Shown here piece after piece: positions 2,647 to 53,600 of a DNA stretch of 64,000 nt; within the stretch, counting starts at the first letter, position 1; each line of letters starts with the position of its first letter. The notes under the pieces were generated by a model. The model worked only from the letters and a program-made list of their open reading frames with translations. It did not search any database and was not told the origin of the DNA. This stretch comes from Octopus vulgaris (Eukaryota), in the NCBI GenBank assembly GCA_951406725.2, contig OX597818.1:105400001-105464000 (forward strand). The letters are read 5' to 3'. The position numbers were made by a program, and so were the translations under genes.

Positions 2647-2989
2647 ATATATATATAGGTGCAACTTTGGCATGTGGTCTACAAGGGAGATTACTTGGGG
2701 TTACTTTTAAATTATTTTGTACATACTTGGCATTGTAAATGTATTTTATCAAATTCTTACTATTTTAATAATAAGAAAATCATATAATAATTAAAATAAG
2801 TATGTAAACCACCCACCAAAGTAAATTTGCTCTTGGAGATAACACGGAAAATAGCACTAGCACAAAGTAAACTAAAAAGTAACCTAAAGTAATCTCCCTT
2901 TAAATTGTAGATCCCACGCTCAAGTTGCAGCTTTTTTTTTCTTACAAAATGATGTGAATTTAGTGCTGATTTCTTGTAAAAATGCAACT

Positions 2990-4040
2990 GCTTTCATCTT
3001 GCCATTGATCACATTGTAAAAATCTTTTGCCAACATCTTACAATCAACCTTGTCCCATTGCATAATTTAGGAGGATCTAAATATCTTAGAAGCCTAAATA
3101 GGACCCTTACCTTCATAAAAATTCTACATGGAGGAATTCAGAATTCCAGGTGGCTCAGGAGAATCAAGGAACTTTGTTGGGTAATGGACAGCTTGATTTT
3201 CATCAAGGACTGAATCAACTGATTTGCACTCTTTAATGATTGTTGGGATCTTATTTGTTAATCCTTGCAACTGTTTCATTTTTTTGAGCAAGAATTGCCC
3301 TTTCACACAACCATTTATGAGAACTACAATTATTACTTAAGTCTGGAAATACCCTGTTCTTCAATTCAACTGGAGAATTCACCATGATAGCAATATGAGC
3401 AAAGCTGATATCACCATTCCTATCAAATGGTACTTTCCCATTTCCTAATTGGAGGAGCCAGGTTGAAAATTGTTCTGCACATTGGTCCCCATGTAATAAC
3501 GCTCACACATTAGTATTGAAGGAGAATTTTTGTATTTTATTCCATAGGTGCAAAGAATTAATGCATGCTTTTATTTCATCAAATCTTCCTTGTCTTGGAA
3601 TGTCTGGTAATGTCTCTCTGAAGTCTTCTGATGAAATTCATGTAACTCCCTCCATAGATTTATTGTTGCCTCTGATGTCCTGTAAGATCTTACCAAGAGC
3701 TTCCACTGCACCTCTATGTGGCATGGTGCATTCATTCCAAATGATAAGGTGGCATTGGCACAACACTTTTAGTGAACTTGAATCTTTTCTTATGTTACAA
3801 AATGGACTGTCATTTGTGACCTGGTTTAGCAGTAATTTAAAAGCAGAATGGGCTGTTCGTCCTCCTGAGAGGAATAGTGACAGAAAAGCCAAACAATCCT
3901 ACAGCAACTGCAATTCTTTTTTCTTGCCTTACCTTGGAGAGAAGCAATGTTGTTACAAATGTTTTACCTGTGCCATCAGGAGCATCAAGAAGGAAAATTC
4001 CTCTGCTTTTTTCTGGTGATTGTGGAACACCGTATGCACA
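2990..4040 (-). pseudogene. Helitron PIF1-like helicase fragment, frameshifted (copy 1)
   Basis: FLLDAPDGTGKTF (Walker A), GGRTAHSAFKL, LIIWNECTM, YPTKFLDSPEPPG and PPKLCNGTRL-type motifs spread over several frames. Confidence 0.9.
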
Positions 4041-4970
4041 CACATAAACACAGACACATATACATACAGTATCAAACATGAGATGAAATGGATATGTGTG
4101 TGTGAGTGATAGAGAGCACGAATGAAGGGGTATGTTGTCATGTATACATACATAAATAAGCATACATATTTTTTGTATGTATGTGTGCATGTGAGAGAGC
4201 GAATGCCACTTAGACATCACTCACTCTCTCTTATGCACACATACATGCAAAAAAGATGTATGCTTATGTATTCATGTAAGTACACGTACATGACAACACA
4301 TCCCTTCACTCTCTCTCTCACACACACACATACATAAATGTATACCAACATACATACAAAAACACGTGTGTGTGTGCGACTGACTACAAATACCCAAATT
4401 TTTTGGGATGATTCGTGTTGAATTGCAAATTTTAATGTGATATTTGTGTAATAATGAAATCAAACCTGGAGTGTGTGTGTGAGTGAGAAAGAGAGGGGGA
4501 GAGAACATTGCAAACAATAAATGAAATAAGCATAAAATGAAAAAAATTGTCTCAATAATAATACATTAAAAATCTCTCGTATGAAATATTTGAATTTGTG
4601 AACTTAGTAAATATTTGTTTCAGTAATTTATTGTAGTTGTTTCGAAAGAGTAAATTAAAATGGAAAATTTCACAGTTGCTATGTCAAAACTGGAAGTTGA
4701 CGTTGAGAAACCTTTTTAAAGAAGTGAATCATAAATATAAAGCAATATTTATTTTTAATGGAAAAATAAACTGATGACCCTATTACGTATCCAAGTTTAA
4801 ATTATTCATGCATCCCAAGTTTTCTCAGGAAAAGCGAAAATACATACACGCCTTGATTGTTGGCCTATTTTGTGTGTGAGGAAGTTTGACAGCACTGCTC
4901 TTATCTGTACCATATTGAGCTGTTGGTTTCAGCCGGTATTGTAAAGAGAAGAGTGTCTAGTTGTTTTTTG

Positions 4971-5504
4971 TGCCAGCCTCGCCTGGCCCCGTGCCGGTGA
5001 CACGTAAAAGCACCGTCCGTTCGTGGCCGTTTGCCAGCTCTGTCTGGCCCCGTGTCGGTGGCACGTAAAAGCACCATCCGTTCGTGGCCGTTTGCCAGCT
5101 CTGTCTGGCCCTGTGTCGGTGGCACGTAAAAGCACCATCCGTTCGTGTCCGTTGCCAGCCTCGGCTGGCCCCCGTGCCGGTGACACGTAAAAGCACCGTC
5201 CGCTCGTGGCTGTTTGCCAGCTCTGTCTGGCAACTGTGTCGGTGGCACGTAAAAGCACCATCTGTTCGCGTCCGTTGCCAGCCTCGGCTGGCCCCCGTGC
5301 CGGTGACACGTGAAAGTACCGTCCGTTCGTGGCCGGTTGCCAGCTCTGTCTGGCCCCGTGTCGGTGGCACGTAAAAGCACCATCCGTTCGTGTCCGTTGC
5401 CAGCATCGCCTGGCCCCGTGCCGGTGACACGTAAAAGCACCATCCGTTCGTGGCCGTTCGCCAGCTCTGTCTGGCACCTGTGCAGGTGGCACGTAAAAAA
5501 CACC
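4971..5504 (+). repeat. Tandem array of nine ~61 bp units (A/B variants) in an RTE 3' UTR
   Basis: CACGT(A/G)AAA recurs at ~5001, 5062, 5123, 5184, 5246, 5307, 5368, 5428, 5490; runs directly into the RTE 3' tail (to ~5663). Confidence 0.95.
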
Positions 5505-6289: not shown

Positions 6290-8085
6290 AAGATGAGCAA
6301 GGATATCCAGCGTTGCTCGGGATTAAAATGGCATAGTTTGTGTATAATATATTACAGTTATGTTGAAACAGGTGGTATGGGAAAGTGCAGCATTGACAAC
6401 AAAACATTTAAGGAGTAAATGATGGGCTAATTCAACTAAGCAACATGCTATGCATCTGTTTGGAGTATTTCAGGCCCTAACCTGTCATGGAAAATTGGGG
6501 GTGGGGGTCATGTAATTTTTGAATGCACCAAAAAGCTGTCAGTGGATATACTGTCTTTTGCAGCAGTTGGCACTGTGTCTAACATGGCCCATCATCTGAA
6601 ATTTTGACACCTCCTTCAGGTTTGTTGTCCTACATCACTCATTAAGTAAATTTGGAGGAACTGTTGTTGTTCATTTGTGGGTAACAGGGAACCAATGAGG
6701 TAATAGACTTGCCCTTGAACTTTGATGCCGGCATAAATTCATGTTTAACTATCTTCTTAGATGCAGTAAACGATGTCATTTGAAATGCAGAGTTATATTG
6801 TCTGATATTGTTCAGAAAATACTTTGACTGGATATAAGTGCCTTCTAGAGGATCCATAAAACATTGAGAAGAAGCTGGTAGTGCTGGCAAAGTTACCTGA
6901 CCGCCTGAGCAGCACATATCATTTGTTTTATTTGAAAATTTTAAAGCTCTACAGAAACAACAATTTATGTTTAGCATACCAGTTTGGACAGAGTTATCAT
7001 TTTTATAAGAACAGGATGGATCATACCTGAAAAGAGCTTCAGGGGTTGTGAAAAACGAATATGTATGTAGTCTGTTTCTGAGAGCTATTCTATTGGGCCT
7101 CTGTCTAATCATTAAAACATTGATTTAATGACCCAGCATTAAGAGCTGCAACATGCATTGGCTGATCTTGAGAAAATCTCATCTCACTTCTCTTTTCAGA
7201 CTCTCACCTTTGGTTTTCTACAATCCTCCTTGCTCTATACTTGTTTCTGAAGAGATTACGTCTTCTCTTTGGTGGCATATTTTTTCAATATTTTAAACAA
7301 AAAATTATGAACATAGAAAGAAATTATACATTAATCCCTATTTTGTAAGCAGTTGTATATATATATAGTATGCTTTTATTTTTGTATGCAGTATAAATTA
7401 ACCAAATAGAAGCCCATGTATGAACCGCTAATTTAACGATAAATGCCACAATAATTATTATAGATAAATTTCTTAATATACATATATTATGCACATGTAT
7501 TAAATATTAATTTAAGGGTAAATATGTAACTGTAAATACCTTGCAACTGCAGTAATAATTATCAACTGGTAACTGAACGGTATATGAGTATTTTTATATA
7601 CATTGGACCTGCCATCTCATTGTTTTTGTCAAGAGTTTCACCTCCAGCCATTTGTTATGTCAACACATACACTAACACCATTCTGCTGTGGTGGCTCATT
7701 TTGTGTTTTTTCCCGCTCATTCTGTAAAACTTTATTTGAAGAGAGCAGAAATTGAAAGAAGAGAAAGCGAAAAGGACCACGAGAAAAAAAGTGAAAGATG
7801 TATGTACGTGTATATGAAATGGACGTATGTGTGTGTGTGAGAAAAAGAGAGAGATAGAGTGAGTGAGTGAAGGTGTGTGTCGTGATGATTGATATCTTTT
7901 AAGATACACACACATAGAAAATGTGACATCATATAAAATGTTTATGATAGTTGATTTATGGAAAAGATTATGATGTTAATTTTTGAAATGCAAATATGTG
8001 AATGGAAATTAAGTTTAATTTGTAGTACTGAATCTTTTGATACACCATACGTCAAAATCAGTGACACGGTTTTGAAATGCAACAA
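6290..8085 (-). mobile_element. Helitron remnant (N-terminal Rep region and 3' hairpin)
   Basis: ORF 6642-7112 has CCFCRALKF..MCCSGGQVTLP and FLNNIRQYNSAFQMTSF; decayed 3' hairpin CCCGAGCAACGCTGG near 6305-6321; shares AATTTTTGAAATGCAAATATGTGAA with the Helitron at 43358. Confidence 0.85.
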
Positions 8086-8086
8086 C

Positions 8087-8980
8087 ATTCTTCTTTGTGA
8101 TCTTCACCAAAATTTGCAAGCAGATGCTCAATAACGTTGAACCTCATAAAACACATGACCATATTTATGAGTGGTAGAGTGGCTTGATGATGCATTAAAG
8201 TGACAAATCTCTTAATAAGGTTTAGTATTAGAAATCTCACATTGCTGTCCAGAGATATTTCTAACAGATGAAAGAGTGGAAAATAAATTGTTTATATAAT
8301 ATAGATGTGTATGTGGGCATGCAATAAAAGACCTAGTTTAAAATACATTTTCAAACTGGACCCATTCACTATAGGTATGAGGCATGCTTCTTATACATCT
8401 AGTGTCTACTGTAAAATAAAGTCAACTAACAAATTAGGATTACACCAAGACAAACCAATGGATTAAAGAATGAAACAGGATACTAGAAATGGCTTCTGCA
8501 GCAGAGATCCTCACAGAGTGAAATAGATGTACAATGTAAAATCTTATTACATTGTAAAATATAGATGAAGAAAAAAATTTTTTCATTTTTCATCTTATAA
8601 GATATTTAAAAGAAGTATTTACAAAGATATTCTACTGAATAATTTTAACATTTTTAAAAATTGCTGAAATGAATAAGTTAAAAATAATATTCCTGAAAAA
8701 AGGAAAAGGACAAATGAAAAAATGTAACCAAAAGTAATTATTTTTTTCTATTTTTGTTTTCTTTCCCTTCCTTTTTATTAACCTTTTATTTTTTCTGAAA
8801 TTTATTATGTTAACATGGGAGAAATATTTTCTTCTGAATAATTTTAAGGTCATAAATTCTTTGCACGGGTTTTACTTAAATTCTGACAAATTAATTAAAA
8901 GTGCACCAACAACTTTATCACCCAGACAACATAGATTTGTATCAATGTCACTTTGAACCAATCATGCAAATATTAGAATG
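8087..8980 (-). pseudogene. Duplicated fragment of the hnRNP U-like gene (part of a SPRY exon plus upstream intron)
   Basis: Colinear with 49833-51225 apart from a ~415 bp deletion and smaller indels; retains VIEHLLANFGEDHKEE versus VIEHLSANFGEDHREE. Confidence 0.9.
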
Positions 8981-9270
8981 TGTACTATTAATTTTAAACA
9001 GAGATATTCTGTGCATCTAAACTCATTTAAATATGAAGAACATAGCAAATCCACATCCCTAGCCAACCACATACACCTTCTGATAAATAGGAAAGTACCA
9101 TATAGGATATTCTGGGCCATAATAGATTCTAGTGTCCCATACCAAGGCCAGCACTCCACATGTGAACTCTGCCTGAAAACCCCTCTAAATATTAATTTAT
9201 AATTCACTGCAATTACTCAATAAACAACATGAATCATTTTCTACATGCAAGCATAAGTTCTTTCACAATT
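8978..9270 (+). mobile_element. Penelope-like element, GIY-YIG endonuclease C-terminal fragment
   Basis: FKQRYSVHLNSF...TSLANHIHLL...WAIIDSSVPY...CELCL then LLNKQHESFSTCKHK, resembling the PLE endonuclease C-terminus. Confidence 0.75.
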
Positions 9271-9567
9271 TCAGATTCTTCCAAAGGTCAAAATGCAAGC
9301 AAAATCAACACACATAACCCTTGCCTATAGATATCCACTGTCATAACAATACAATCCACTAGCTAGCTTTAATTCCTTAAATTTAAATTTTTAAATTTTT
9401 AATTTGACTTTTAAATTTTAATTCTTTAATTTGTATCCTTTATTCCTTTAATTGTAGTTTTATCCTATACATACCTCCTTAAGCTAGGCATCTATTTTTA
9501 GCTATCCCTACTGACCACTCCACATCTAACCTAGATTTCATCTATTTAATTAATAGATATAAATACC

Positions 9568-9680
9568 TATTTCTTTATTACCCACAGAGGGCTAAACACA
9601 GAGGGGACAAACAAGGACAGACATAGGTATTAAGTCGATTACATCGACCCCAGTGTGTAACTGGTACTTAATTTATCAAA
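9568..9680 (-). mobile_element. SINE 3' fragment (same family as 10476-10708)
   Basis: Reverse complement of the GATAAA..AAGTACCAGT..CTGGGGTCGATGTAATCGACTTAA..TTTAGCCC segment. Confidence 0.8.
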
Positions 9681-17620: not shown

Positions 17621-18339
17621 TGGAAAGAATTGGGAAAAATACCACAATGCATCCAGACCAGTATTCTTCAATTCAGCTGAGCCAACACCCTAGAATGCTA
17701 CTTTGATTTTTAACAAAAAGTATGAAAAGCAAAGTTGACCAGCAAGATTTAAATTCAGATCAAAAAGAGTTGGAACTAATGTTGCAAGACATTTTATTTG
17801 CTGATCGAGTGATCTTTGCCAATAATATGCATTCCTAATATCTAGGCATAAAAATCTGAATAAAAAAACAATGTATATCGTACATGAATAAATATGGTAT
17901 ACTTGCATCTCAGTAACCCAATCAGTTATATTGCTTGGACACACTGTAAAAACAATTATAACTAATCTCTAAATTAAGTAGAAGGCTACACATTTGAGAG
18001 ATGGATAAAGACAATCAAATAGACTCACCTCTCCCTCGGTACTTTCCCAGTATTTATTTTATCAATACTGGAAAGATGAAAGGACAAAACAACTATAGCA
18101 ATATTTGAACTCAGAACATAAAGATATGCAACTGAATACTGTAAGGCATTTTGTACAATACTGTAACTATTCATTCCAACTAGCACTCTGTAGGGACACT
18201 GTATAATTGGTGGGGGTTTGTATTAATTTTATTTATGTTTCTTAATTTTAAAAATCATTGAATTAAAATAATTAAAAGATTACCATTTCCTATGTTTGTC
18301 TTTGCAGAAACAAACATCAAAATAAAGAACATTGTAACC

Positions 18340-19558
18340 ATGAAGCTTTTACTGATAGTTTTTATATGCATTATGTCAATATGCATCGTTAATACTACTT
18401 GTCCGGAATCATGCCAGTGCAACAAAGAACAAACAGAAGTTTCATGTGAGAGACAATCTCTAACATCAGTCCCTAAATCATTGCCGACAACTACAGAATC
18501 TCTCAAATTGGCTTATAATTTACTACGAGAAATTACAGCAGAGTCTTTCAAAAATTTAGTTAAACTGAAAAAACTGGTTTTAACATCAAACAAAATTTCA
18601 GTTATCAGAAAAAATAGTTTTAAATACCAATCCAAACTGGTCTCTCTTTACTTGATCAACAATATCATCCATACCATTGAAAATGGTTCTTTTGTTGGGG
18701 CCATTTCTTTAGCTAGTATTTATCTGAATTCAAATCAACTAAAAGATGTTCCGTGTCTTTATGGTTTAATCTCATTGAAACAGCTACTCATAAATGCCAA
18801 TCAAATTTCAGAAGTATTCTTTCCTGCTGAATATAGGCAAATAAAAACTCTCACTTATATAAATCTTTCTAATAACAAAATAAACCGTCTTACTGTTAAT
18901 TCTCTTATGAATTTAAATGAGTCAAATATAAAGAAGATCTCATTTTCAAGAAATCAAATCACAAATATTGAACCAGAAACATTTCAGGTCCTAAGAAACA
19001 TAGATTGTTTAAAAATTGGAATAAACCCTTTCACAGCAGATGTCCTTAAAAATTCTCTCTATGCAATGAGAAATTTTAACCTTCGCTCTTTGGATCTTTC
19101 TGGATTAAACAAGATAAATGTTCTTGCAGGTAATATATTTGAAGCATTACAAAACACTTCCCTTCAAACATTAATCTTAAGTCGCAGTAACATCTCACAT
19201 GTCAGTAGCGACACATTCAAACTATTAGATTCTCTTGAAGTTCTGAATCTAGAATTTTGTCAAATTACCAGTTTAGAAGAATCTACATTCACAAATTTGA
19301 CTCATTTAAGAAGGCTCGTTCTGAATGGCAATTACATATCTAAGCTAACAGCAGTTTTCCCATCGAAACTACTTTATTTGAACTTGAACGGTAATAAGAT
19401 TCAGAGAGTCCCAAGCAAAGTTTTTGATGAGCTGTTTCATTTGACAGAACTTCACCTACAGTACAATAAAATTGTACAGTTCGACAAAGATGCATTTATA
19501 GGCCTGGAGAATCTCAAGATTTTGAAGTTACAACACAATCGTATTAATGTTATTCCAG
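18340..19558 (+). CDS. Toll-like receptor, coding exon 1 (signal peptide, LRRNT, LRRs)
   Basis: MKLLLIVFICIMSICIVNT signal peptide, CPESCQC LRRNT, many LxxLxLxxN repeats; donor CAG|GTGAGT at 19558/19559 (phase 1); acceptor TTTGCAG at ~18307 implies an upstream UTR exon. Confidence 0.93.
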
Positions 19559-20329
19559 GTGAGTAATAAAAGTTATCTTTTAAAGCAGACAAATAGCATT
19601 ATGCTTTATTGAGTCTCAAGAAAGAGACACAGTTGATTTTGATGGTGGTGTGCCACCCTCCTGGCTGAGGAGTAAAAACAAAATGCCTCAGTAGATATAG
19701 TGCTGAACAACTAATCCTTATGTTAAAGTATTCTTCAAGCACTTGTATATTTAGGTACAATGCTTGTTTATTTAGGGAGTGCATTTATGTATTTAGGGAA
19801 TTATACTTGTCTATTTAGGGATTTTCTTGTCAATTTAGCACTTAATTTTATATGCCTCAGTATTCAGTATCGTCTGAGAATGCTACTTATCAGAAACTAT
19901 CTTTTCATCTATTTGGAGCCTGAAATATGGAGGGCTGCACCATTTAAGCTCTATGAACAGGCTGTATCAAAGGCATACTGCTATAAAAAGTGACAAGGGT
20001 AAGAAAGTTAGATGATTTGCTATATAAACTTTAATTAGAGGTATTAGTTAGAGTTTGTGAGGAGAGACTACTGCAATGGATGTAATTTTCTAGATGAAGA
20101 AAAACCCTGTTATTTAATATTATAGCATCAGGTCAGTCATGACTGAGCAGAACAATGACTGTTGATGTTCCAGCTTTGAGCAACCTTTCCTTTTAGTGGG
20201 TATTTCTAGTGCTACATTTGCCAATGCTTCCTTCCTTTTTTAAGACAGAGGGCTTGGAATTTTGAGGAAAGTATCATGGTTTGTGAATACATTATACATG
20301 AGGGAATGAAAGAAAGTAGTAAAGTTCCT

Positions 20330-20562
20330 TCCTGAGTCTTGTAGACTCATAGGGATAGTTTCCATGGCATGTATATATTCCCCACCTAGACAGGACACTA
20401 GTCTGTTGCAGGATTACTCATTTTTGCCAGCCGAGTGGACTGGAGCAAAATGAAATGAAGTGTTTTGCTCAAGAATACAACGTGTCAGTTGGTCCAGATA
20501 TCAAAACCACGATTTTACAATTATGAGTCCAACACCCTAACCACTATGCCACATCCCTCCAC
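20330..20562 (-). mobile_element. tRNA-derived SINE in the TLR intron
   Basis: Minus strand begins with an A box TGGCATAGTGG and a decayed B box, followed by TTGAGCAAAACACTTCATTTCA. Confidence 0.7.
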
Positions 20563-20845
20563 TATGCATGAGGGAAGTAGAACTAAAATCAAGATAAAAT
20601 AAGTTATTGAAGGGTAAGATACATATGTTTTGGGTTTATAGAACAACTTATTCTTACATCAATGCATAATTGATATATGAACGAAGTAAGGTGTGAGGAA
20701 AAGGTGCCGCCATCGGTCAAGGCTGCTGCACAACTAATGTGCAATGCCTGGAACAGGGTATGAGGATAATGAAAACATGTACCTGACATTATGATTATAG
20801 AACGTTGTGATGTATGATGCAATGTTTATCTATTATTTCTTGCAG

Positions 20846-22125
20846 GTGGTTTATTTTCTACATTGGCTGGTCTGTCAGATTTACGACTTGGTTCCAATGA
20901 CATAACTACTATACCTGAAGAAATTTTCATCAGACTAAAATCCCTGAGTATTCTGGATCTATCCAATAATCATATTTCCAAGATGCCCAAAAGTTTTTCA
21001 AAAGAGTTAACTCGAATAAGAGAATTATATTTAGATTCTAACAAACTTGGGAAATTCTTATCTACTGACAAAAAGGGCTTCCTGCTGAGTGGTCTTAAAA
21101 ATTTGGAAAGAATTGATTTATCTTATAATGAAATTCAAGGCCATTTGTCTAAGAAAATCTTTCAAAACAATAAACATCTGAAATATATCAATTTCAAGGG
21201 AAATAAAATTACTGGATGGGAAAACAACACATTTGAGGTAACAAATTTAACACTGATGGAACTTGATGTCAGTAATAACTTCATAATTACTTTTGATAGT
21301 GATTCTTTAAAGTATATAAACAGAAAGAAAAAGTTCAACATTACTTTGAACCCATTTGCATGTGACTGCAATCTTCGTTGGTTCAGGGACTGGTTAAATA
21401 CTACAACAGTAGATATTGTAGACAAAAACGACTTGATGTGCAACAGTCCTCCAGATTGGCAGGGCAAGAAATTACTTGATTTCAGTCGGTCAAAGATAGA
21501 TTGTACTGACTATACGCTTTACTATATCTTAGCTGGTGGAGGTGGAGGTTTTCTCTTAACTGTTGTCATAGTTATATTTGCATACACTAAACGTTGGTAC
21601 ATCAAATTTAAGCTGTTTAAACTTTATCAGTATGTACAGAAATCAGGCAATGAAAATGAGTGTGAAGCTGTACCTGGAGATGACATGTATTTTGATGGGT
21701 ACATCAGTTACTCTGACAAAGATGGTGAATGGGTTGAAAAGTATTTGATGCACACGTTTGATAATGGAGAAAATGGAGAAAATAAGAACAATGGAAACTT
21801 TAAACTTTGCTTCCGAAACAGGGACTTTGCTTATGGAAAATATATTATTGGAATGATAGAAAGTTCTCTGGCTGTGAGTAAGAAAATGATAGTGGTTCTA
21901 ACACCATATTATAAAAAAGACAAGAGATGTGAATTTGAATTGCAACTTGGTATTATGAAGCTTAATATAAGAAATGTGATGCCTATTGTGCTCAAAAACT
22001 TACAACCAAATCAGATTCCCAATAGTCTGAAAGAAATCTTTGAAACAAATAAATTTATTGAATGGGACAATAATGAGTATGCTACAAATTTTATAAAACG
22101 TAAACTGGAAAATTTCCTTAATTAA
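20846..22125 (+). CDS. Toll-like receptor, coding exon 2 (LRRs, LRRCT, TM, TIR)
   Basis: Acceptor TTCTTGCAG|GT in frame with exon 1 (..VIPG-GLFSTL..); NPFACDCNLRWF LRRCT; hydrophobic TM; TIR boxes FDGYISYS, RDFAYG, CEFEL, FIEW; joined protein 832 aa. Confidence 0.95.
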
Positions 22126-24971: not shown

Positions 24972-25689
24972 TCTCGGAGTTGTTGGCATTAGGAAGGGCA
25001 TCCAGCTGTAGAAACTCGGCCAGATCAGATTGGAGTCTGGTTCGCCAGACCTCAGTGAAATCGTCTGACTCATGCTAGCATGGAAAGCGGACGTTAACTG
25101 ATGATGATGATGATGATGATGATATATATGTATATATGTATATATATGTAAGGTGTCTTCAAAGCAAAACTGGATCTCCTCCTGTCAAGGATTCTGAATG
25201 AGCCTATCTCACGGCAGGATACACAGATAAGGGCAGAAGCATGAAATTCCCTTCTTCACCAAATGCCACATATCATAGGAGGTTTCAAAGAGTGAAAATG
25301 TAACAAAACCAATGTTTATATGTAGGTGCAACTTTGTTATGTGGTCTACAAGGGAGATTACTTGAGGTTACTTTTAAATTATTTTGTACATATTTAGCAT
25401 TGTAAATACATTTTATCAAATTCTTACTATTTTAATTAGAAGAAAACCATATAATAATTAAAATAAGCGCGTAGATCTCCCACCAAAGTAAATTTGCTCT
25501 TGTAGATAACACGGAAAGTAGCACTAGCACAAAGTAAACTAAAAAGTAACCTAAATTAATCTCCCTTTAAATTGTAGATCCCACGCTCAAGTGGCACCTT
25601 TTTTTTTCTTATTAAATGATGTGAATTTAGTGCTGATTTCTTGTAAAAATGCAACTGGCTTCATCTCAAAGCTGATCACATTGCAAAAA

Positions 25690-31784: not shown

Positions 31785-34700
31785 TTAATGAGGCCTTGGC
31801 CAGCGTGGTGGGCCACTTGGTCTCATGCCACGTGGTGGTCCGCCTCTCCCTTCAAATCTTGGGGGTCGTCGAGGCCCCATTCCACGCATATTACCTTGAT
31901 TCCAACCACCAGGGCCATTGAAGTCAGACCCATGATCGCGTGGAGCCATTCCTCGGGGCCCTCCTCGACGTGGCCCTCCATCAAAACGAGGTCGTGGTCC
32001 ACCAGGTCCATCAAAATTAGGACGTGGTCCTCTTGATTGATTCATTGCACCTCGATGCCCCATAAAGCGGCCGGGAGGTCCATGATCTCTGTTCATGTCA
32101 CCAAGACCACCAAAGCCACCAAACTGTCCAGGACCCATATCCATACAACGATCCCCTTCAGGGAAGAAATCTGGTCTTCCCATTCCAGAATGATCCATTC
32201 GCCCTCCTGGCCCACTGAAACGGCCCATTTGATCCATTCGATTCTCACCAGAATCTACATCCCTGTCGGGGCGCCCACGGTCTGAACGCCGAGTGTCTCT
32301 TTCAGGTTTGTCCCCACTGTTCTTGTCTTCATTTGAACCACTACGATCAGTTTTCTCATTTCTCTCACTCTTGTCAGACACATTACTACGTTCTGATTTC
32401 TCAGTTGCAGTTCCAGGCCGATCTGTTTTCTCATTTGTTGCACTCCTCTCATTTTTCTCTCCACTACCACGATCTGCTTTGTTTCCACTTTTCTCTGATT
32501 TCTCCCCACTACTCCCACGTTCAGACTTCTCGCCTGAGCTACTGCGGTCAGCTTTCTCTGTACTGCTACTACCTCCACCACTACTACTACTGCGATCTGT
32601 TTTCTCATTGCCCCTATCCGATTTGTCATTGCTGCTACTACTGCCACCACCACGATCAGAGCGGTCTCCACCACGATCAGACCTGTTGCTATCACGATCT
32701 GACCGCTCACTACTACGATCTGTACGACTGCTGTCTCTTTCAGACCTATCAGAGCTACCACGCTCAGGTCGGCTACTGTCACGATCTGATCGGCTTTCTC
32801 TTTCTGAACGGTCACTGCTACGATCCAGCCTATCGCTTCGGTCAGATCTATCACTTCGGTCTGGCCGATCCCCACGATCAGACCGATCCCCACGATCAGA
32901 CCGACCTTCACGATCAGAGCGTCCGTCTCTATCAGATCTATCTCTTTCAGAACGACCATCTCTGCGATCAGATCTGCCATAGTTGCTTCGATCTGATCTA
33001 CCATAGTTGCCACGATCTGATCTTCCATATCCACCACGATCAGATCTACCATATCCACCATGATCAGATCTGCCCCCCATGTGGTCAGGTCTGCCCCCCA
33101 TGTGGTCTGGTCTCCCACCCATATGATCAGGTCTGTTACTCATATGATCAGGCCGCCCTCTCATCTGGTCGGATCTTCCCCCCATCTGGTCAGATCTTCC
33201 ACCCATCTGGTCAGGCCGCCCACCCATGTGGTCAGGTCGTCCCCCTAATTGATCCATTTGTCCGCCCATGTGGTCAGGCCTTCTATTCATATGATCTGAT
33301 CGTTGGTGGCCCATATTTGAACTACTGTCCCCATAATTCCCTGGCAAGCCCATCCCTTCTGGAATCTGGGTTGAAATAGCCGGAGAAGGATCAGCATCAC
33401 TCCATCGGGTTCTCCGCTGATTTTCACTGCGACCTCCTGGCTTTTTAACCTCATCTTTTGGTTTTGATGATGAATAATCAGAATATCCACCACCACCGCC
33501 ATAGTTCCCTTGACTATCTGGCTTATCCCCACCCCACCTCTGTCTGCCTCCAGACTGCCACTGATTCTCATTGCCAGGACGTGGCTGGTTATAACCTGAG
33601 CTTGATAACATAGAGCTACTGCCTGATTGTCCTATATCAGACCTGTAGCCATGCTGATCAGGTCGATTACTGTTGTCAATGCCACGATTCCCAGGTTGAT
33701 CATAACCTCCATATTGACCCTGCTGATAACCACCATATGATTGCTGACCGCCAACATTGCCACGCTGGTTTGGTTGGTTAATACCACTGCCACCGCTGTT
33801 ATATTGATTGTTTTGATTGTTTGTACCATAAGATCCTTGGTTTTCAGAATATCTGTTGCCACCACCATAGAAGTTCTGGTTGCCCCCAGAAAACTGATTA
33901 TTATTGCCGCCACTGCTGCTGCCACCACCACCACTTCCACTGTTATTATTTCCAGAATTACCATATTGATTTTGGTTTCTTCCATAAGAAGCTGACTGGT
34001 TGCTGCTGTACTGTGTTGGCTGAGAACCACTATAGTAATTAGATTGATTAGTATACTGGTTAGATTGGTTGGAGGTTGGGCTTTCTGAATAAGACCGCTG
34101 TTGATCACTACTGTACATGCTTACTTGATTATATTGGCCAGGTTGGCTAGAACTATACTGGCCCTGATTGCCAGGTGGCTGTTGGTACCCGCTATACTGG
34201 TTAGTGTTAGCACCATAAGAAGCTGGTTGAGCAGATCCAGATCGGTCTGGCTGGCTAGAGTTATAAGAGCTCTGTTCTGTCTGACCATATGTTGAATCTG
34301 ATGAACTGCTGTATTGTTGCTGGCGTTGGTTGTAATCATAAGAATAGTTACTGCTCTGATAGGCTGGCTGCTCATTGTAAGGTGGGGAAGTGTACTGTGA
34401 CGGCTGGCCACTGTAATTTGACTGCATGCCCCATGCCTTTGTATCAGTGCTTGTAAATTGAGGGGGTAAATTGAGCTGAGACTGGTTGTAAGAAGAATAC
34501 TGATCATTGTAACTACCAGGTTCTTGTTTCATAGGAGGTGGAGGTGGGGGTGGAGGGGGTGCAGAAGTGTTGGTGGGATTAGCAGTGCCATACCAGTTAC
34601 CAGGGCTGCTATTTACTGTACCACTGACACCGCTGCTGCCACCACCGCCACTGCTACCTGCAGATCCAGCAACCCCACTGCGAGCTGCAACATCTGCATC

Positions 34701-35237
34701 TGTACTGGAGTAGCTACCCTGATAGGACAGTGTTCCGTAGCTTGGGTTCTGAACATTGTAGGAAGCTGGGGTACTTTGGTCTCGATTGCCCCAACTAGAA
34801 GAACTAGTTTGGTACCCGTAACTGCCAGTCACTGACTGAGAACCATAGCTGCCGGCAGCACTGTTTGAACTACTGCTAGTGTATTGCCCACCATAGCCAT
34901 CATAGGCTGAACGAGACTCTGGTTTGACATGAATGTCTTGCCACTGTGGAGAATTTTCTTCACCTTCACCACCATACTCCTGTTTGATGAAATCAAGAGC
35001 ACTACTTGGGTCGGGTTTGATACGTTTCTCAGGAGGTTCTGTAACATCAGTTGCAGGACCCCATCTTGACTGGCGCCCTTCAAACCGATCTTTGTTACCA
35101 GGAGGAGGTGGTGGTGGAAGCATTGGAGTTCTCTGTCCAGGAGGAAGATCCATTTGTGGTTTTTCTACTTTAATTATTTGGTGTGGAGGAGGAGGTGGTC
35201 CTTGTGACATCCGTGGAGAAAATGGCTTTTGTGGGCT
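31785..35237 (-). CDS. HNRNPUL1: hnRNP U/UL1-family protein, terminal coding exon (1150 aa low-complexity: P-rich, SYGQN-rich, RSD repeats, RGG/PRG)
   Basis: Uninterrupted 3.45 kb ORF; acceptor TTGCAG|AGC (phase 0) matches the phase of the 38001-38076 exon. Confidence 0.88.
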   Translation of the reverse strand, partial: SPQKPFSPRMSQGPPPPPHQIIKVEKPQMDLPPGQRTPMLPPPPPPGNKDRFEGRQSRWGPATDVTEPPEKRIKPDPSSALDFIKQEYGGEGEENSPQWQDIHVKPESRSAYDGYGGQYTSSSSNSAAGSYGSQSVTGSYGYQTSSSSWGNRDQSTPASYNVQNPSYGTLSYQGSYSSTDADVAARSGVAGSAGSSGGGGSSGVSGTVNSSPGNWYGTANPTNTSAPPPPPPPPPMKQEPGSYNDQYSSYNQSQLNLPPQFTSTDTKAWGMQSNYSGQPSQYTSPPYNEQPAYQSSNYSYDYNQRQQQYSSSSDSTYGQTEQSSYNSSQPDRSGSAQPASYGANTNQYSGYQQPPGNQGQYSSSQPGQYNQVSMYSSDQQRSYSESPTSNQSNQYTNQSNYYSGSQPTQYSSNQSASYGRNQNQYGNSGNNNSGSGGGGSSSGGNNNQFSGGNQNFYGGGNRYSENQGSYGTNNQNNQYNSGGSGINQPNQRGNVGGQQSYGGYQQGQYGGYDQPGNRGIDNSNRPDQHGYRSDIGQSGSSSMLSSSGYNQPRPGNENQWQSGGRQRWGGDKPDSQGNYGGGGGYSDYSSSKPKDEVKKPGGRSENQRRTRWSDADPSPAISTQIPEGMGLPGNYGDSSSNMGHQRSDHMNRRPDHMGGQMDQLGGRPDHMGGRPDQMGGRSDQMGGRSDQMRGRPDHMSNRPDHMGGRPDHMGGRPDHMGGRSDHGGYGRSDRGGYGRSDRGNYGRSDRSNYGRSDRRDGRSERDRSDRDGRSDREGRSDRGDRSDRGDRPDRSDRSDRSDRLDRSSDRSERESRSDRDSSRPERGSSDRSERDSSRTDRSSERSDRDSNRSDRGGDRSDRGGGSSSSNDKSDRGNEKTDRSSSSGGGSSSTEKADRSSSGEKSERGSSGEKSEKSGNKADRGSGEKNERSATNEKTDRPGTATEKSERSNVSDKSERNEKTDRSGSNEDKNSGDKPERDTRRSDRGRPDRDVDSGENRMDQMGRFSGPGGRMDHSGMGRPDFFPEGDRCMDMGPGQFGGFGGLGDMNRDHGPPGRFMGHRGAMNQSRGPRPNFDGPGGPRPRFDGGPRRGGPRGMAPRDHGSDFNGPGGWNQGNMRGMGPRRPPRFEGRGGPPRGMRPSGPPRWPRPH

Positions 35238-35766
35238 CTGCAATTATAAAATAAAAAGAAAACTCAATATATAATTCAAACAACAAATGAATTCAATGAA
35301 TTCGTAAATAAAGAAGAGATTTTTTTGTTTTTCTGATGGATTGGTTTTGATGGGAGGAAGAGGGAAAGTTATCCTTAGACTAGAGAACCAACCTAAATAC
35401 CTTTAACATTTGGACCTTGATAAAGGTACTCAAAAGCCTAAGAACAGTAAGCATCTATGATGAGCTTACAGACAATTTCCATTCAATCGAATTTCTCTCA
35501 CAAGGCTTCAAGTAACCTGGGGCTATAGTTAAAGACCCGTCCCCAAAGCCATGTGATTTCATAATCACATGGTGATGCCAGCACCTATACTTGTTATGCA
35601 GTTTATAAGATGAAATAAAGGTAATGAAGATCTATTTTACCCATTCAAACAGAGAAAGAGAGAAATACATCCACATGTTCTAGAAAAAAAAGATTGTTAC
35701 AAATTATAAACTTTTACTTTATATTCTTTAACAAACGATCATCACAATCATTACTTTTCCTTTTAA

Positions 35767-37400
35767 CCCTTTCATTACCAAACTGCCCAAAGCTACCCGA
35801 AAAAAGTTCTGGTTCATATGACCAAAGCACTCAAACCTGCCTGTAATCACATATTCATATTTAAATGAGAATTTCAGTGCAAATCTCATTAGTACATTCA
35901 TGAAAACATGCGATTCCACTTGTTGACAGTTGAATTGCAGTTCCCGACATCGATTGACTGATATATAAGCTTTGTGGATTTGGGGGGATTTTTTTCTAAT
36001 TTTTTTCTGATCAATGTTTTGGAATTTGTAATACTGAAAAAAAAATGGATACTAGCTTTATTCTATCAAGCAGTGAGTCAGAATTTGAAGGATTTTCAAC
36101 TGAAGACCTTGAGAAATCTACTAAATTTGTAACTGAAAAATAAAATGTGGTATTTGATAATGAATCTGATGTTTCATTTTCCGAAAGTCAATGTTGTGAT
36201 TCCAACAACTCTGATGACAGCAATAAAGAAAACGAATTTACACCTGAATGGAGTAAGAATCTGGAAACTTACTTTTAGCAATTTTTGTGAAGAGGATGGA
36301 CCAAGTCACAATCTTTCTCAGGAAAGAAAACCAGTAGACTATTTCCTTTTATTTTTTCCTTTTAGCTTGTTTCAAATAATTACAGTGGAAACAAACCTTT
36401 ACGTTGAATATAAACAAAGCGAATAAAAAGGATAGTGTGTGGTTTCCCACAAACATAGATCAAATTAGAGCATATTTTGCCATAAATATTATTATGGGCG
36501 TTAGAAAGCTACTCAGAATTACAAATTACTGGAGTAGCGATGAACCCTTTGGAGACGAATATGTCTCAAGTATAATGACAAGGACGTGGTTTCTAAAATT
36601 AAAGCAGTATTTACATGTGAGAGACATGAGCAGTACACCAGTACATGGAGAACCAGATTTTGATCTCTTATTTAAAATAAGACCCCTCATTCATTGTGTT
36701 CAAAACACATATAAAACATTTTACAAACCAGGGAGATATCTATCCATTGATGAGAGTATGGTGGACCATAAAGGCCGAGTATGTTTTTGATAATATATGC
36801 CAGGAAAGCCCACAAAACAGGGGATCAAAGTTTGGAAGAATTGCGAATCAAATACTGGGTAGTGCTCTGGATTTGAACTTTAAACAGGCAAAAGAGACAA
36901 TTATGTAAGCCAGCATAGCCTAGGGTATGATGTGGTCTGGAGTTTATCACTTCCATACCATAACCAGGGCCGTATATTATTTTTGACCGATGGCAACACA
37001 TACATGTGCTACAGTAATCGCTAGTAGAAAAGGACTGCCACTGGATATAAAAAAAGGTGAAATAATTCAACTGCAGAAAGGAAATCTGCTAGCAACCACA
37101 TACAGAGATAAGAGGCAGATCAATTTTCAGTCTACCTGTGCACATCCACACGTAGATGAACATGGCACTTCATTTGCAAACCTCAATTATAACAGGTACA
37201 TGGGTGGTTGTAGATCGGGGAAATGGTGGCGATACCTGGTTTGGTATATAGTAAATATGAGTATTGTTAATGCATTTATACTATACACCAAACTGGGACC
37301 AGATCGAAAGCAATGCAACCATCTGCAATTCTGAGCAGATATAGCAACACAATTGAGAGCTGGTTAATCCTCAAAAAAATAAATAACTGGTGGTAGTTAC
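35767..37400 (+). mobile_element. piggyBac (PGBD4-like) transposase pseudogene in intron
   Basis: TTAA|CCCTTTCATTACC left end; LSIDESMV, YWSSDE..MTRTWF..YLHV, KIRPLI and YNRYMGG..KWWR motifs; stops and frameshifts; right TIR not found. Confidence 0.9.
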
Positions 37401-49630: not shown

Positions 49631-49777
49631 CTGGACAATGATAAGAAAAAAATTTCAATTAATGATTAACTTTCACAGAATATATTTTCTTGGACTAGTT
49701 TGAAACAATGCAATATTAGTATACAAAATTTCTCTAGTATAAAATAAAATGTTAGATGAAGCTTGTTTTATCCATAC

Positions 49778-49898
49778 CTAATTGGTATGAGGACTTATTA
49801 ATAGACCATCCAACTCTCACAACATGAGGGTGTTCTTCTCTGTGATCTTCACCAAAATTTGCAGACAGATGCTCAATAACATGAACCTCATAAAATAC
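49778..49898 (-). CDS. HNRNPUL1: hnRNP U/UL1-family exon, SPRY domain (VFYEVHVIEHL...PHVVRVGWSINKSSYQL)
   Basis: HVVRVGWS motif; TTCCAG acceptor and GTATGG donor; most 5' exon found in the window. Confidence 0.93.
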
Positions 49899-50468
49899 CT
49901 GGAAAATAATAGCAAATATATTTTCAAATAAATCCTGTTATTTTTGCCTAAATGTTAAAAACAACAACCAAATACATAAAAAAAATTCCATTGTTTTGTA
50001 ACTAAGCTATAACATAACACTTTAAAATTTAGACATGCCAGTCATCTAAAAACCTTAGACGTTAAGAATGTAGCAGACAGAATATTAACAACACTTTCAG
50101 GTGTTACTATTAGTTTCAAACAATCAATCAAAATACATAACCCAGTGGAGTTGTAGGTATACAGTAAAATACACAACCTCTTCTCATTATCTTTCCAAGT
50201 TATCACCCAACCTCACATTTTCCACCATCTTCCTCATTGTCCATTGCCTAATGTTGATCAAATACTCCCTCTGTGATCTTCCTATACCTCTTTTACAAGG
50301 GGTTTGTATACACGAGACCATATTTGTGAGTGGTAGAGTGGCATGGTGATGTGTTAAATTGACAAATCACTTAATAAATTTTAGTATTAGAAATTTCACA
50401 TTATTGTCCAGAGATATTCCTAACAGATGAAAGGGTGGAAAATAAATTGTTTATTATAATATAGATGT

Positions 50469-50650
50469 GTATGTGGGCATGCAATAAAAGACCTAGTTTA
50501 AAATACATTTTCAAACTGGACCCATTCACTATAGGTATGAGGCATGCTTCTTATACATCTAGTGTCTACTGTAAAATAAAGTCAACTAACAAATTAGGAT
50601 TACACCAAGACAAACCAATGGATTAAAGAATGAAACAGGATACTAGAAAT
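50469..50650 (-). ncRNA. Candidate intronic box H/ACA-like structured RNA
   Basis: Hairpin (TCTAGT/ACTAGA) - ATAAGA (ANANNA) - hairpin (GCATGC/GCATGC, ACCTA/TAGGT) - CC-ACA-TAC; 100% identical copy at 8309-8490; folded by eye only. Confidence 0.35.
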
Positions 50651-53600
50651 GGCTTCTGCAGCAGAGATCCTCACAGAGTGAAATAGATGTACAATGTAAA
50701 ATCTTACTTACATTGTAAAATATAGATGAAGAAAAAAATTTTTCCCCCTTTTTTATCTTATATTTAAAAGTTGGCAAAGAATTGTTCCATGATAAAAGAA
50801 GTATTTACAAAGATATTCTACTGAATAATGTTAACATTTTTTAACATTGCTGAAATGAATAAGTTAAAAATAATATTTCTGAAAAAAGGAAAAGGATAAA
50901 TAAAAAAAAAATGTAACCAAAAGTAATATTTTTTCTTCTCTTTTTGCTTTCTTTCCCTTCTTTTTTATTAACCTTTTTTTCTGAAATTTATTATGTTAAA
51001 TTGTTGAGAACACAGGAGAAATAAAAAAGAAAATTCTTTTTCTTTCTCACACACAGAATAATTCATTCATATCACATATTTTCTTCTGAATAATTTCATA
51101 GTAATAAATACTTTGCATGGGTTTTCTTAAATTCTGAGAAATTAATTACAGGTGCACCAACAACATTATCACCCGGACAACAGATTTGTATCAATGTCAC
51201 TATGCACCAATCAACCAAATATTAGATGGGGGTGGAGACTCCAGAAATTGCATTTTAATATTTTGAGCCATGATAGCATTTTCACTGACCTCAAAATGTA
51301 TGTGCATGAAAGTGCATAACCATAAATTTTGGCTTTAAAAAGCCCTCATTCAAAGTACACATGCATACATTGCAAATGAAATTACACTTGCATATCCTTG
51401 TCACTTTGGCTATAAACACAAATAATATGATAGAAAGAAATTGAAAATAAAGTTTTAAATCACCCAAAACAGAAAAGCTGATTTTTTTCTCTCTTCTAAA
51501 GAGAAAAACTATTTTCAAAAGATGAAAATAATTTTAACCTGTAATTCACAGGCGCTGAAAGAAGAGAACTATTGTAGAAAGAAATTTAAAATAGAATTAT
51601 GCAATCCATTGTGTTTTCTGAATGTAATAGCAGCATCTTCAGCTTTTAGTTTTTCGTTGATTTGATGGATGTAAGAAATTCTCTGATGACAAAGAAAAAA
51701 GGAAGTTTGCTTGAAAAAGTAATTCAGATTTCAGTAATGTACTAGCTGTGTGACCAACTCCTGTTGATAGCACATAACTAAAAACAAGTATGGACCTGCT
51801 TTACATATTTAAAATTCCTCATTTTCTTATGGTTTTTATCACACTATATAGCTTGGAACAGTTTTCTGATTTGCCAGCTCCTGTGAAACTGTCCTACCAT
51901 TACCAGCATGGAAAACAGATGTTATTTTTTTTTCTTCCCCTTTTGAAAATTTAGATACTTGCTTATTATTTACAGTTGGGTACTTTCCTAACACCAACTA
52001 ATTAGCACTAGTTAAGCAGACAATGAGACTAGTATAGTCCAGAGATACAATGAGTATATAGGAATGAAATGTGAATATATGGTTAGTTCCTTAACCTCAA
52101 TCATATTGCTACATAACGATGCTGATATTCAATGAAAAATAGGAATAAAATTATTCAATTCCAATTATTCTGATGTCAGAGGTAATAAATTTCTTATGAC
52201 TTACTTTTATTTCTCTTTCTTTTATTTAATGCATGTTTATTGAAAAAAAAAAAAGAAAAGCTTCGTAAAAAACATATAGAAAAAGTAAAGAGTGATATGA
52301 ATGAGTAACAAGAAATTCTCCTGATTACGGAAATAATTCTGGACACTGTACATGCCAACAAAAGTAAGGCTGTGTGAAGTGTCTTTACCTGGAGACAGAT
52401 TTCTAATGCGTTGTTAAAAAAAAAAAAAAGGTGGACCTCAGGTTAATGTGGGAAACATTTTTGTGTAGAAATGGGCATTGCATATTTGATGATTGCTACC
52501 TAAAGCATACTGGAAACCTCAATGAAATGGGAAAATTAACTTGATCTGTCATGCTGATTTTGAAAATCACTATTTAATAATAGTAACAACCAGTTAACTT
52601 ATTTATATCCCGACACCTTTTTTGCCTACATAAAAGAAGAGGAGTTTGCTACTTTAAAATTATTAAGAAATTACAAATTTTTTTTATAAATCCAAGAACC
52701 ATTTTTCATATTCCTATAAGATGTGTGGCATATCAGTAAATAATACAAATCTCAACCAATAATGGTATATATATATATCACAGTGGTATTCATGAGTTTA
52801 TAATTTTCATTACCAGACATCAAGCTGAAGCAGTAAAATTTTAATGGTGTATTTCATTAATTTAACAAGGAAGCTTCCTTTCATTGCTGAGATCTAGAAC
52901 AAAAATATTTCAGATTGCAGTTTAGTCTTCGAAAGTCATTCATATAAATCTACTGTTCAGCTATGCATTTGCTTCATTTCAGGATGGATAAAATAATAAC
53001 TGTTATTTATATCAATACAAAACACGCATAAGGCGTACCTTTATTTGATATTAATGTCTTTGATTTTGTATGATATATATATAAAATGTTTTACAATCAG
53101 GTCCAACTACTTCTATTTTATGTAGGTAATAATGAACTAAATCATTAGATACTAAAGCCAGGGCTGGAATATATTCAAGTCACACAAGATTTATGCCTTT
53201 ACCTAAAATTATCACTCACTAATCAGGTCTTGCAAAAATTATTGGTTTTATTTTATCACCTTTATAGAAATCTCAAAAATATAAATGAATAAAATAAAAA
53301 GATCTGTAAAGGGGGTCATTAAAGAAAATGGATTTAATTAATAAAAAAAGATATGTTATGGTTATCAAGAAGAAAAAAAAAAAAGAATAAATATGTAACC
53401 CAATTTTTCCTGTTTACCTTCAATGTTTTGAATAAAATTCTCCAATTGAATTTTATACTCCTGAATAGTAGGATTTATTTTAATGTATCTAATTTCCAAA
53501 GAATTTGCCATCAATAGCATTAAAAATAACATTTATCAATTAGGTAAGGAAAATAAACTGCAAGCCTCAATTATTGTAATTTTTCTGCAATTCTTAAGCA

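What the first reader, a model, noticed from the sequence alone, without database searches (positions are those of the whole stretch)
8295..8546. 252 bp island identical to an hnRNP intron segment 42 kb away, amid diverged flanks; H/ACA-like fold
Seen: 8295-8546 equals 50455-50706 base for base (constant offset 42160), while both flanks of the same duplication carry many substitutions and indels. The core is bracketed by a 10 bp direct repeat AATATAGATG in both copies. On the minus (host-sense) strand it folds by eye as hairpin - H box ATAAGA - hairpin - ACA. The 3' hairpin has an internal pocket (CTCAT / CTTTTATT) whose upper stem lies 16 nt from ACA, within the usual 14-16 nt H/ACA spacing. 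Inference: an undescribed intronic sno/scaRNA-like or regulatory element kept in both copies, or a recent gene-conversion tract.
Basis: partly seen in the sequence, partly recalled or inferred. Interest (0 to 1): 0.75.

Follow-up and report, generated by a model that had tools for sequence, protein, structure and literature searches.

The report
Gene-conversion island in octopus intron duplicate
A 252-base stretch in an intron of an octopus RNA-binding-protein gene is letter-for-letter identical to an old, broken duplicate 42 kb away, most likely because one copy was recently overwritten from the other (ordinary gene conversion), and the proposed small guide RNA inside it is only weakly supported.

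Summary
The identity is real: 8295-8546 equals 50455-50706 over exactly 252 bp, inside a ~0.9-kb duplicate whose flanks differ at ~10% of sites (1.3e-10 such runs expected by chance). Sequencing contigs show both copies merging at the same edge, so it is not an assembly artefact, and the genome search finds only these two copies. Copy B lies in a 17-kb intron of an HNRNPUL1-like gene. Copy A is an orphan fragment 23 kb past that gene's stop, with a frameshifted exon remnant. In a very close relative, copy A differs from B at one to three core sites, no fewer than in its flanks, which argues against ultraconservation of both copies. Best explanation: a non-allelic gene-conversion tract of typical length. 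The H/ACA reading is weak. An H box, a 6-bp stem and ACA are present and uncommon (~1-2% by chance), but the proposed pocket is 5.4 kcal/mol above the best fold, the two-hairpin unit folds no better than shuffles, and there is no CAB box, Rfam hit or rRNA/snRNA target above background. A functional element in copy B is not excluded: no distant cephalopod or small-RNA data could be examined.

The parts
8295..8546 (.). Identity island, copy A (orphan duplicate); inferred conversion tract
   Evidence: exact 252-bp match; DNA? contigs merge at 8295 in X2 and at 8301 in X19/X20
50455..50706 (.). Identity island, copy B, in the 17-kb intron of the HNRNPUL1-like gene, 557-808 nt upstream of the next exon
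   Evidence: spliced contigs join exon 49900 directly to the upstream exon
8276..8582 (.). Substitution-free stretch around the island, with two 1-nt indels (after 8294 and 8546)
   Evidence: pairwise alignment
8151..8977 (-). Copy A of the duplicated intron segment (flanks ~10% diverged from B)
50310..51226 (-). Copy B of the duplicated intron segment
8088..8154 (-). Frameshifted remnant of the first 66 nt of the SPRY exon, joined to the intron segment across a ~410-bp gap whose end is within 4 nt of the exon's acceptor
   Evidence: 5 substitutions, 1 gap in 66 columns; same junction on contigs of X17 and X18
49777..49898 (-). Host SPRY exon (VFYEVHV...SSYQLG) downstream of copy B
   Evidence: splice joint 49629-49777 with CT..AC ends in X9 and X13
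31785..35243 (-). Long 3' coding exon and stop codon of the HNRNPUL1-like host; copy A lies 22.8 kb beyond it
50469..50554 (-). H-box / hairpin / ACA-like motif in B (H 50554-50549; stem 50547-50542 with 50482-50477; ACA 50474-50472); the same motif is in A at 8394-8309; function not shown
8298..8307 (+). Left copy of the 10-bp direct repeat AATATAGATG (B 50458-50467)
8558..8567 (+). Right copy of the 10-bp direct repeat (B 50719-50728), outside the exact run
8530..8556 (.). Perfect 10-bp inverted repeat whose loop holds the indel that ends the exact run
   Evidence: I9
8980..9568 (+). High-copy dispersed repeat, cut short where copy A ends
   Evidence: 40 other matches; 8 of 8 copies examined continue leftward with shared repeat sequence that A lacks

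Best explanation
The 252-bp island is a real identity tract between an HNRNPUL1-like intron and an old orphan duplicate of it 42 kb away, most likely produced by non-allelic gene conversion rather than by selection on a shared RNA. Shown: a ~1.3-kb piece of the gene (intron end plus the start of the SPRY exon) exists as a local duplicate that has lost ~410 bp, carries a frameshift and differs from the parent at ~10% of flank sites, while its middle is identical. Inferred: repair of a break in one copy used the other as template and overwrote a few hundred bases, probably more than once, because a patch that is already identical stays long enough to pair again while the diverged flanks have escaped. 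The edges then erode (two 1-nt indels here; up to three substitutions, all within 40 nt of an edge, in the relative). Direction is not determined; B to A is the likelier net flow because B is unchanged between the two organisms.
For: Run of 252 against 10.1% flank events: 1.3e-10 expected. Both copies are in independent contigs and merge at the tract edge: X2 A-left piece 8030-8324 with 0 differences, B-left piece with 14, shared piece from 8295; the same pattern in X17, X18, X19, X20. Only 2 matches in the 2.8-Gb genome. In the relative-type runs the A-type contig carries 8300 T>C (B place 50460). The merged contig carries 8334 T>A in 4 of 4 such runs (X17, X18, X19, X20) and 8530 T>C in 2 of 4, while the B-type intron contig of X13 has none of these. 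Counting all three for A gives 3/252 against 5/1011 in listed A flank pieces (Fisher p=0.20, core not better kept). If selection had held the core at 13% of the flank rate or less, 0.16 changes are expected and P(3 or more)=6.5e-4. Identity runs on both sides beyond the proposed RNA motif. Tract length equals the mean NAGC tract estimated in humans, 250 bp with CI 63-1000 (bioRxiv 10.1101/135152, passages). Neighbouring duplicates are also patchy, e.g. a 174-bp run with 0.0014 expected and a 106-bp run with 0.006. Copy A lies 22.8 kb past the host stop and abuts dispersed repeats.
Against: Conversion slows as copies diverge, and the cited paper limits its rate estimates to under 5% divergence and models a 400-bp perfect-homology requirement (passages); these flanks are ~10% apart, so a persisting island must be assumed. 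No outgroup was available to show a changed genealogy or direction. Assigning 8334 and 8530 to copy A is inferred from collapsed contigs and from one B-type contig of another run; they could be alleles of B. All three variants are tolerated by the best-fold structure (outside it, at a bulge, U-A to U-G), as a constrained RNA would also predict. Copy B shows 0 attributable differences over 1129 nt between the organisms against 8 in 1263 for A (p=0.008 for this post hoc window; p=0.16 for all listed B intron), a hint of constraint on B. The H-stem-ACA motif and the end-to-end direct repeat are each uncommon by chance.
Confidence: 0.68

Rival explanations
1. Copy B holds a functional element (an orphan H/ACA-like RNA ending at ACA+3, or a splicing-regulatory or poison-exon element of the hnRNP gene), and conversion merely copies it onto the silent duplicate. 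Conversion still explains the identity; this rival adds a function for B.
For: H box 1 nt before a 6-bp stem and ACA 2 nt after it; only 13 other distinct sites (7 with a stem of 6 bp or more) reach -18.9 kcal/mol in 268,000 strand-bases, about 1-2% chance for a 252-bp tract. B is invariant over 1129 nt between the two organisms. Two GCAUG motifs, a branch/pyrimidine/AG site at 50570 and a GTAAGT donor at 50711 lie in or at the island. Poison exons in hnRNP genes are recalled, not tested.
Against: 3' domain z=-1.68 (12 of 200 shuffles as good) and 34 of 351 windows of the same intron are as stable; two-hairpin unit z=+0.20, 5' hairpin z=+0.34; the opposite strand folds better, z=-2.59. No target above shuffles. 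24 of 379 YAG sites in the scanned 14.1 kb of the intron score as well as the 50570 site. Spliced contigs of X9 and X13 join the flanking exons directly across the island. No match in the C6 paralog's intron or in 40 metagenome loci.
Confidence: 0.18
2. Both copies are kept identical by purifying selection because each makes the same sno/scaRNA or acts as the same regulatory element.
For: Perfect identity; motif present in both copies; variants in the relative are structure-neutral.
Against: A is outside the host gene, frameshifted and hemmed by repeats. One to three core changes in the relative's copy A within ~0.5% species divergence do not fit near-zero change over ~10% paralog divergence. 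Identity extends ~85 nt or more beyond the folded 147-nt candidate and includes its loops.
Confidence: 0.06
3. The segment between the 10-bp direct repeats is an insertion with a target-site duplication that entered one copy after the duplication and was carried to the other by gap repair.
For: The repeats sit within 4 and 21 nt of the tract edges; this end-to-end pattern occurs in 3 of 655 intron windows and 8 of 5000 shuffles.
Against: No poly(A) tail or terminal inverted repeats, and no third copy that could be a source element. The right end is a cluster of related short repeats in 70% A+T DNA, and the test was post hoc.
Confidence: 0.05
4. Assembly collapse or polishing artefact.
For: None found; X2 is flagged as a possible source of this DNA, so it is not fully independent.
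Against: Separate A-type and B-type flank contigs merge at the tract edge in 5 of 5 DNA-like runs laid (X2, X17, X18, X19, X20), four of them carrying the relative's alleles.
Confidence: 0.02

Closest known systems
Non-allelic (interlocus) gene conversion tracts in introns of duplicated genes (bioRxiv 10.1101/135152; abstract and passages seen)
   Same: Identical patch of a few hundred bases inside diverged duplicates on the same chromosome; 252-307 bp against a mean tract of 250 bp.
   Different: Flanks here are ~10% diverged, above the range where that paper estimates rates; the partner is a 0.9-kb orphan fragment, not a gene; no outgroup genealogy was possible.
Intronic box H/ACA snoRNAs and scaRNAs (definition from PMC6466398, 3 passages seen)
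   Same: Host-sense, intronic, ANANNA box, a hairpin with a basal stem and ACA plus 3 nt.
   Different: No stable 5' hairpin, no canonical pocket in the best fold (three-way junction, 17 nt to ACA), no CAB box, no target above background, no Rfam family.
Protostome telomerase RNA (PMC8480181; passages and a search of its one supplement)
   Same: 3' H/ACA-like domain; no cephalopod entry was found in that paper's text or supplement by the terms searched.
   Different: No 7-nt template for TTAGGG or for CCAGG near either copy; no room for a template-pseudoknot upstream of the H box.

Membership tests
Non-allelic gene conversion tract | Identity run far longer than flank divergence allows | tested here: met
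   1.3e-10 expected
Non-allelic gene conversion tract | Two real loci, not an assembly collapse | tested here: met
   distinct flank contigs merge at the edge in 5 of 5 DNA-like runs
Non-allelic gene conversion tract | Tract not more conserved between orthologs than its flanks | tested here: inconclusive
   A core 1-3/252 vs flanks 5/1011, p=0.20; B invariant over 1129 nt; relative only ~0.5% diverged
Non-allelic gene conversion tract | Genealogy switch: paralogs group within species over the tract in outgroup comparisons | not testable with these tools
   no distant cephalopod DNA retrieved
Box H/ACA snoRNA | H box ANANNA in a hinge and ACA 3 nt from the 3' end, flanking a hairpin | tested here: met
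   AUAAGA, 6-bp stem, ACA; the 3' end itself is not shown; 13 other sites as good in 268 kb
Box H/ACA snoRNA | Two hairpins of 60-75 nt, stable against shuffles | tested here: not met
   5' hairpin -9.2 kcal/mol, z=+0.34; 147-nt unit z=+0.20; 3' domain z=-1.68
Box H/ACA snoRNA | Pseudouridylation pocket 14-16 nt from H or ACA | tested here: not met
Box H/ACA snoRNA | Guide complementarity around a target uridine | tested here: not met
   own-genome 18S, 28S, 1.5 kb upstream of 28S, U2, U5, U6: best hits equalled by 42-191 of 200 shuffles, 24 of 60 and 22 of 40; U1, U4, U11, U12, U4atac, U6atac not searched; orphan guides exist
Box H/ACA snoRNA | Located in an intron on the host-sense strand | tested here: inconclusive
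   met for copy B; copy A is outside the host gene and no other host was identified among 57 of 248 ORFs scanned
Box H/ACA snoRNA | Accumulates as a discrete RNA bound by dyskerin | not testable with these tools
   only contigs were served; they cannot show ends or levels
Box H/ACA snoRNA | Cross-species conservation with compensatory changes, or a known family | tested here: inconclusive
   0 Rfam matches at gathering score; 10 weak matches, none over the motif; no outgroup
H/ACA scaRNA | CAB box (ugAG) in an apical loop | tested here: not met
   apical loops of the best fold are AGUGA and AUGUA; definition
Metazoan telomerase RNA | Template of 1.5 telomere repeats and pseudoknot upstream of the H/ACA domain | tested here: not met
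   no 7-mer of the TTAGGG or CCAGG template near either copy
Young transposable element | Many dispersed copies, terminal repeats or poly(A) tail | tested here: not met
   2 matches genome-wide (the tool warns that counts are lower bounds); no TIR or tail

The most novel reading that the evidence does not exclude
The HNRNPUL1-like intron releases a stable orphan H/ACA-like RNA of roughly 250-290 nt, and a reverse-transcribed copy of that RNA repeatedly overwrites the neighbouring dead duplicate, so the identity island traces the ends of the mature RNA. The predicted 3' end (ACA+3, 8309) lies 14 nt from the tract edge, and copy A's deletion ends within 4 nt of a splice acceptor, as a cDNA-mediated event would leave it.
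Probability: 0.05. Interest if true: 0.7.

Novelty: new member of a known kind. Interest (0 to 1): 0.2.

Why it matters
As a conversion island it is ordinary, but it is a clean warning: identity between two copies in one genome is not conservation, and a by-eye H/ACA fold in A+T-rich intron DNA is easy to find. It shows conversion persisting or recurring in a ~300-bp patch of a duplicate that is otherwise ~10% diverged. If copy B proved to make a discrete RNA, it would be an orphan H/ACA-like RNA with no Rfam family, and the island could be a natural case of RNA-templated conversion in an animal germ line.

Tried and rejected
No RNA holder listed: 20 of 24 runs hold the core but none is on record as RNA; this says nothing on expression. 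In the three guessed-RNA runs laid (X9, X13, X5), the listed contigs over the island are B-type and no A-type piece is listed; the contig spanning the island has depth 9.4, 8.9 and 10.8, like other intron contigs (8.0, 10.3, 6.4). Contigs cannot show absence, ends or levels and the tables were cut (61 pieces not shown,193), so this is not used as evidence. No joint into the island was listed either, which does not exclude a rare NMD-targeted exon. Outgroup search in metagenome contigs gave 40 loci, best 70% protein identity over the exon (one 17-residue piece at 88%), none cephalopod-like; best core match E=0.2. The paralogous gene on contig C6 has a ~1.1-kb corresponding intron with no core match, best E=0.056. 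A covariance model from the two identical copies found only itself in 13 loci, next E=1.2; no genome-wide model search was obtained. An 8-nt match of the 3' pocket strand to the 3' end of 18S was dropped because the 5' side gives 3 pairs and 24 of 60 shuffles do as well. A first z of -4.5 for 50441-50560 came from 25 mononucleotide shuffles and fell to -1.83 with 200 dinucleotide shuffles. Telomerase RNA rejected. Capture inside one transposon rejected: the repeats left and right of A are not two halves of one element in 8 copies examined. Retrocopy origin of A not favoured: no poly(A) tail, and it lies next to the parent. Earlier findings by place and sequence: nothing. Paper searches (listings only) showed no paper on a small RNA in a cephalopod HNRNPUL1 intron; the library lacks most subscription journals.

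Full report
Observation. The exact match is 252 bp, 8295-8546 against 50455-50706. It lies in a duplicate of A 8151-8977 and B 50310-51226, with a second piece A 8088-8157 matching B 49833-49901. Outside the run the copies differ by 45 substitutions and 13 gaps, an event rate of 0.101, so 1.3e-10 runs this long are expected. Both ends of the run are 1-nt indels and no substitution occurs from 8276 to 8582. The direct repeat AATATAGATG is at 8298-8307 and 8558-8567, the second just outside the run. The genome search returns only these two copies.

Context. The host is an HNRNPUL1-like gene on the minus strand: SPRY and AAA_33 exons, 85% identical over one exon to cuttlefish HNRNPUL1, which together with earlier scan notes marks the window as octopus. 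Exons mapped with that protein place copy B in a 17-kb intron between an exon ending near window-equivalent 66,927 and the exon starting at 49898. Contigs of X9 and X13 join these two exons directly and splice 49629-49777. Copy A lies 22.8 kb beyond the host stop codon (31785), between two tandem Toll-like receptor genes on the other strand. It carries a frameshifted remnant of the SPRY exon and lacks B 49899-50309; the junction falls within 4 nt of the exon's acceptor. It abuts dispersed repeats, and the right-hand repeat is cut short at the junction in comparison with 8 of 8 copies examined.

Not an artefact. In X2 an A-type contig (8030-8324, 0 differences) and a B-type contig (14 differences) merge into one shared contig from 8295. 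X17, X18, X19 and X20, which carry the alleles of a very close relative, show the same two flank types merging at 8301/50461. X2 may be the source of the window; the other four differ from it in alleles.

Selection or conversion. The relative is only about 0.3-0.5% diverged, so it cannot test deep conservation, but it tests strict constraint. Its A-type contig has 8300 T>C. The merged contig has 8334 T>A in 4 of 4 runs and 8530 T>C in 2 of 4, while the B-type intron contig of X13 matches the window throughout the core. I infer these two are copy-A alleles; they could be alleles of B. Counted by hand from the listed pieces only, A's core has 3 changes in 252 and A's flanks 5 in 1011 (p=0.20). 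If selection had held the core at 13% of the flank rate or less, P(3 or more) is 6.5e-4. All three lie within 40 nt of an edge, as eroding or nested tracts would give. Other duplicates in the region are patchy too, though far less so. A mean tract of 250 bp is estimated for human non-allelic conversion (bioRxiv 10.1101/135152, abstract and passages). Against this reading, the same paper finds that conversion slows as copies diverge, the three variants are tolerated by the best-fold structure, and B has 0 attributable differences over 1129 nt (p=0.008 post hoc; p=0.16 over all listed B intron).

The H/ACA reading. By the definition in PMC6466398 (3 passages), the boxes are present: AUAAGA at B 50554, a GCAUGC/GCAUGC stem, and ACA at 50474. 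A motif this good is uncommon: 13 other distinct sites in 268,000 strand-bases, about 1-2% for a tract of this size. The rest fails. The whole core has z=+0.76, the 147-nt two-hairpin unit +0.20, the 5' hairpin +0.34 and the 3' domain -1.68; the opposite strand folds better, and 34 of 351 windows of the same intron are as stable as the 3' domain. No target in the genome's own 18S, 28S, the 1.5 kb upstream of 28S, U2, U5 or U6 beats shuffles; U1, U4 and the minor snRNAs were not searched. There is no CAB box and no Rfam match. Telomerase RNA was considered because PMC8480181 (passages and its one supplement searched) gave no hit for cephalopod terms, but no template lies near either copy. Splice-like signals in the island are common in this intron.

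Mechanism. Shown: an old local duplicate, decayed flanks, a real identical middle, edge differences in a relative. Inferred: break repair between the two copies overwrote a few hundred bases, probably repeatedly, most likely with B as net donor. Even if B holds a functional element, 252 identical bases including loops and sequence outside the motif are better explained by copying than by selection. Whether B has a function is open: no distant cephalopod sequence and no raw or small-RNA reads were available.

Verdict. A new instance of a known process, interest 0.2. The boldest reading not excluded is a stable orphan H/ACA-like RNA whose cDNA overwrites the duplicate, at probability 0.05. Paper searches (listings only) showed no description of this element. 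Supplements of the bioRxiv paper were not seen; they hold its distance and threshold analyses.

Noticed in passing
G000:C13:1-1440 (L095) and G000:C10 last 2 kb (L087): Two contig ends are long arrays of a 5-nt repeat in matching orientation: (CCTGG)n for ~1.14 kb at the left end of C13, followed inward by ~300 bp of degenerate (CCCTAA)n, and (CCAGG)n filling the last 2 kb of C10. This is the layout expected if the telomere repeat had switched from TTAGGG to CCAGG. Of 45 ends examined, 2 have CCAGG arrays, 1 (C22 left, L119) starts with (CCCTAA)n and 1 (C11 right, L108) ends in degenerate TTAGGG; (TTAGGG)5 has 10,559 overlapping matches genome-wide. One paper search listed nothing on it. Could be a satellite; worth its own look.
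   Followed up: partly
window 8150-8157 vs 49895-49901 and 50310-50313: Copy A's ~410-bp deletion ends within 4 nt of the real splice acceptor and starts at a GT. It fits either a microhomology deletion or loss of a cryptic intron through cDNA; the same junction is present in X17 and X18.
   Followed up: partly
window 18262-22125 and L005 3400-7256: Two tandem two-exon Toll-like receptor genes (LRR plus TIR), 97.3% identical over 4.8 kb while adjoining duplicated blocks are 88-92% identical.
   Followed up: partly
window 31785-35243 (minus): The HNRNPUL1-like gene ends in a single 1152-codon low-complexity exon with PDHMGGR, RSDR and RGG-like repeats; cuttlefish has a homologous long tail.
   Followed up: no
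G000:C6:77528311-77533550 (L014, L066), C1:127621285 (L015), C11:45210439 (L016): A second intron-containing hnRNP U-family gene on C6 (66% identity over the SPRY exon), a match inside a 735-codon open frame on C1 (possible intronless copy) and a stop-containing match on C11.
   Followed up: partly
window 2650-4065 and 25317-26748: Duplicated 1.4-kb block with a weak class C GPCR cysteine-domain match (NCD3G, E=0.004, below cut-off) and a 174-bp identical run, longer than its 6% divergence predicts.
   Followed up: no
window 8826 and about 8600: A 55-bp and a ~25-bp deletion in copy A's right flank are present in the window but appear absent from the relative-type contigs, so part of the flank divergence is recent.
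   Followed up: partly
window 4971-5498: G+C-rich 61-bp tandem array.
   Followed up: no
window 36380-37334: piggyBac/IS4-type transposase fragments (DDE_Tnp_1_7) inside a host intron.
   Followed up: no
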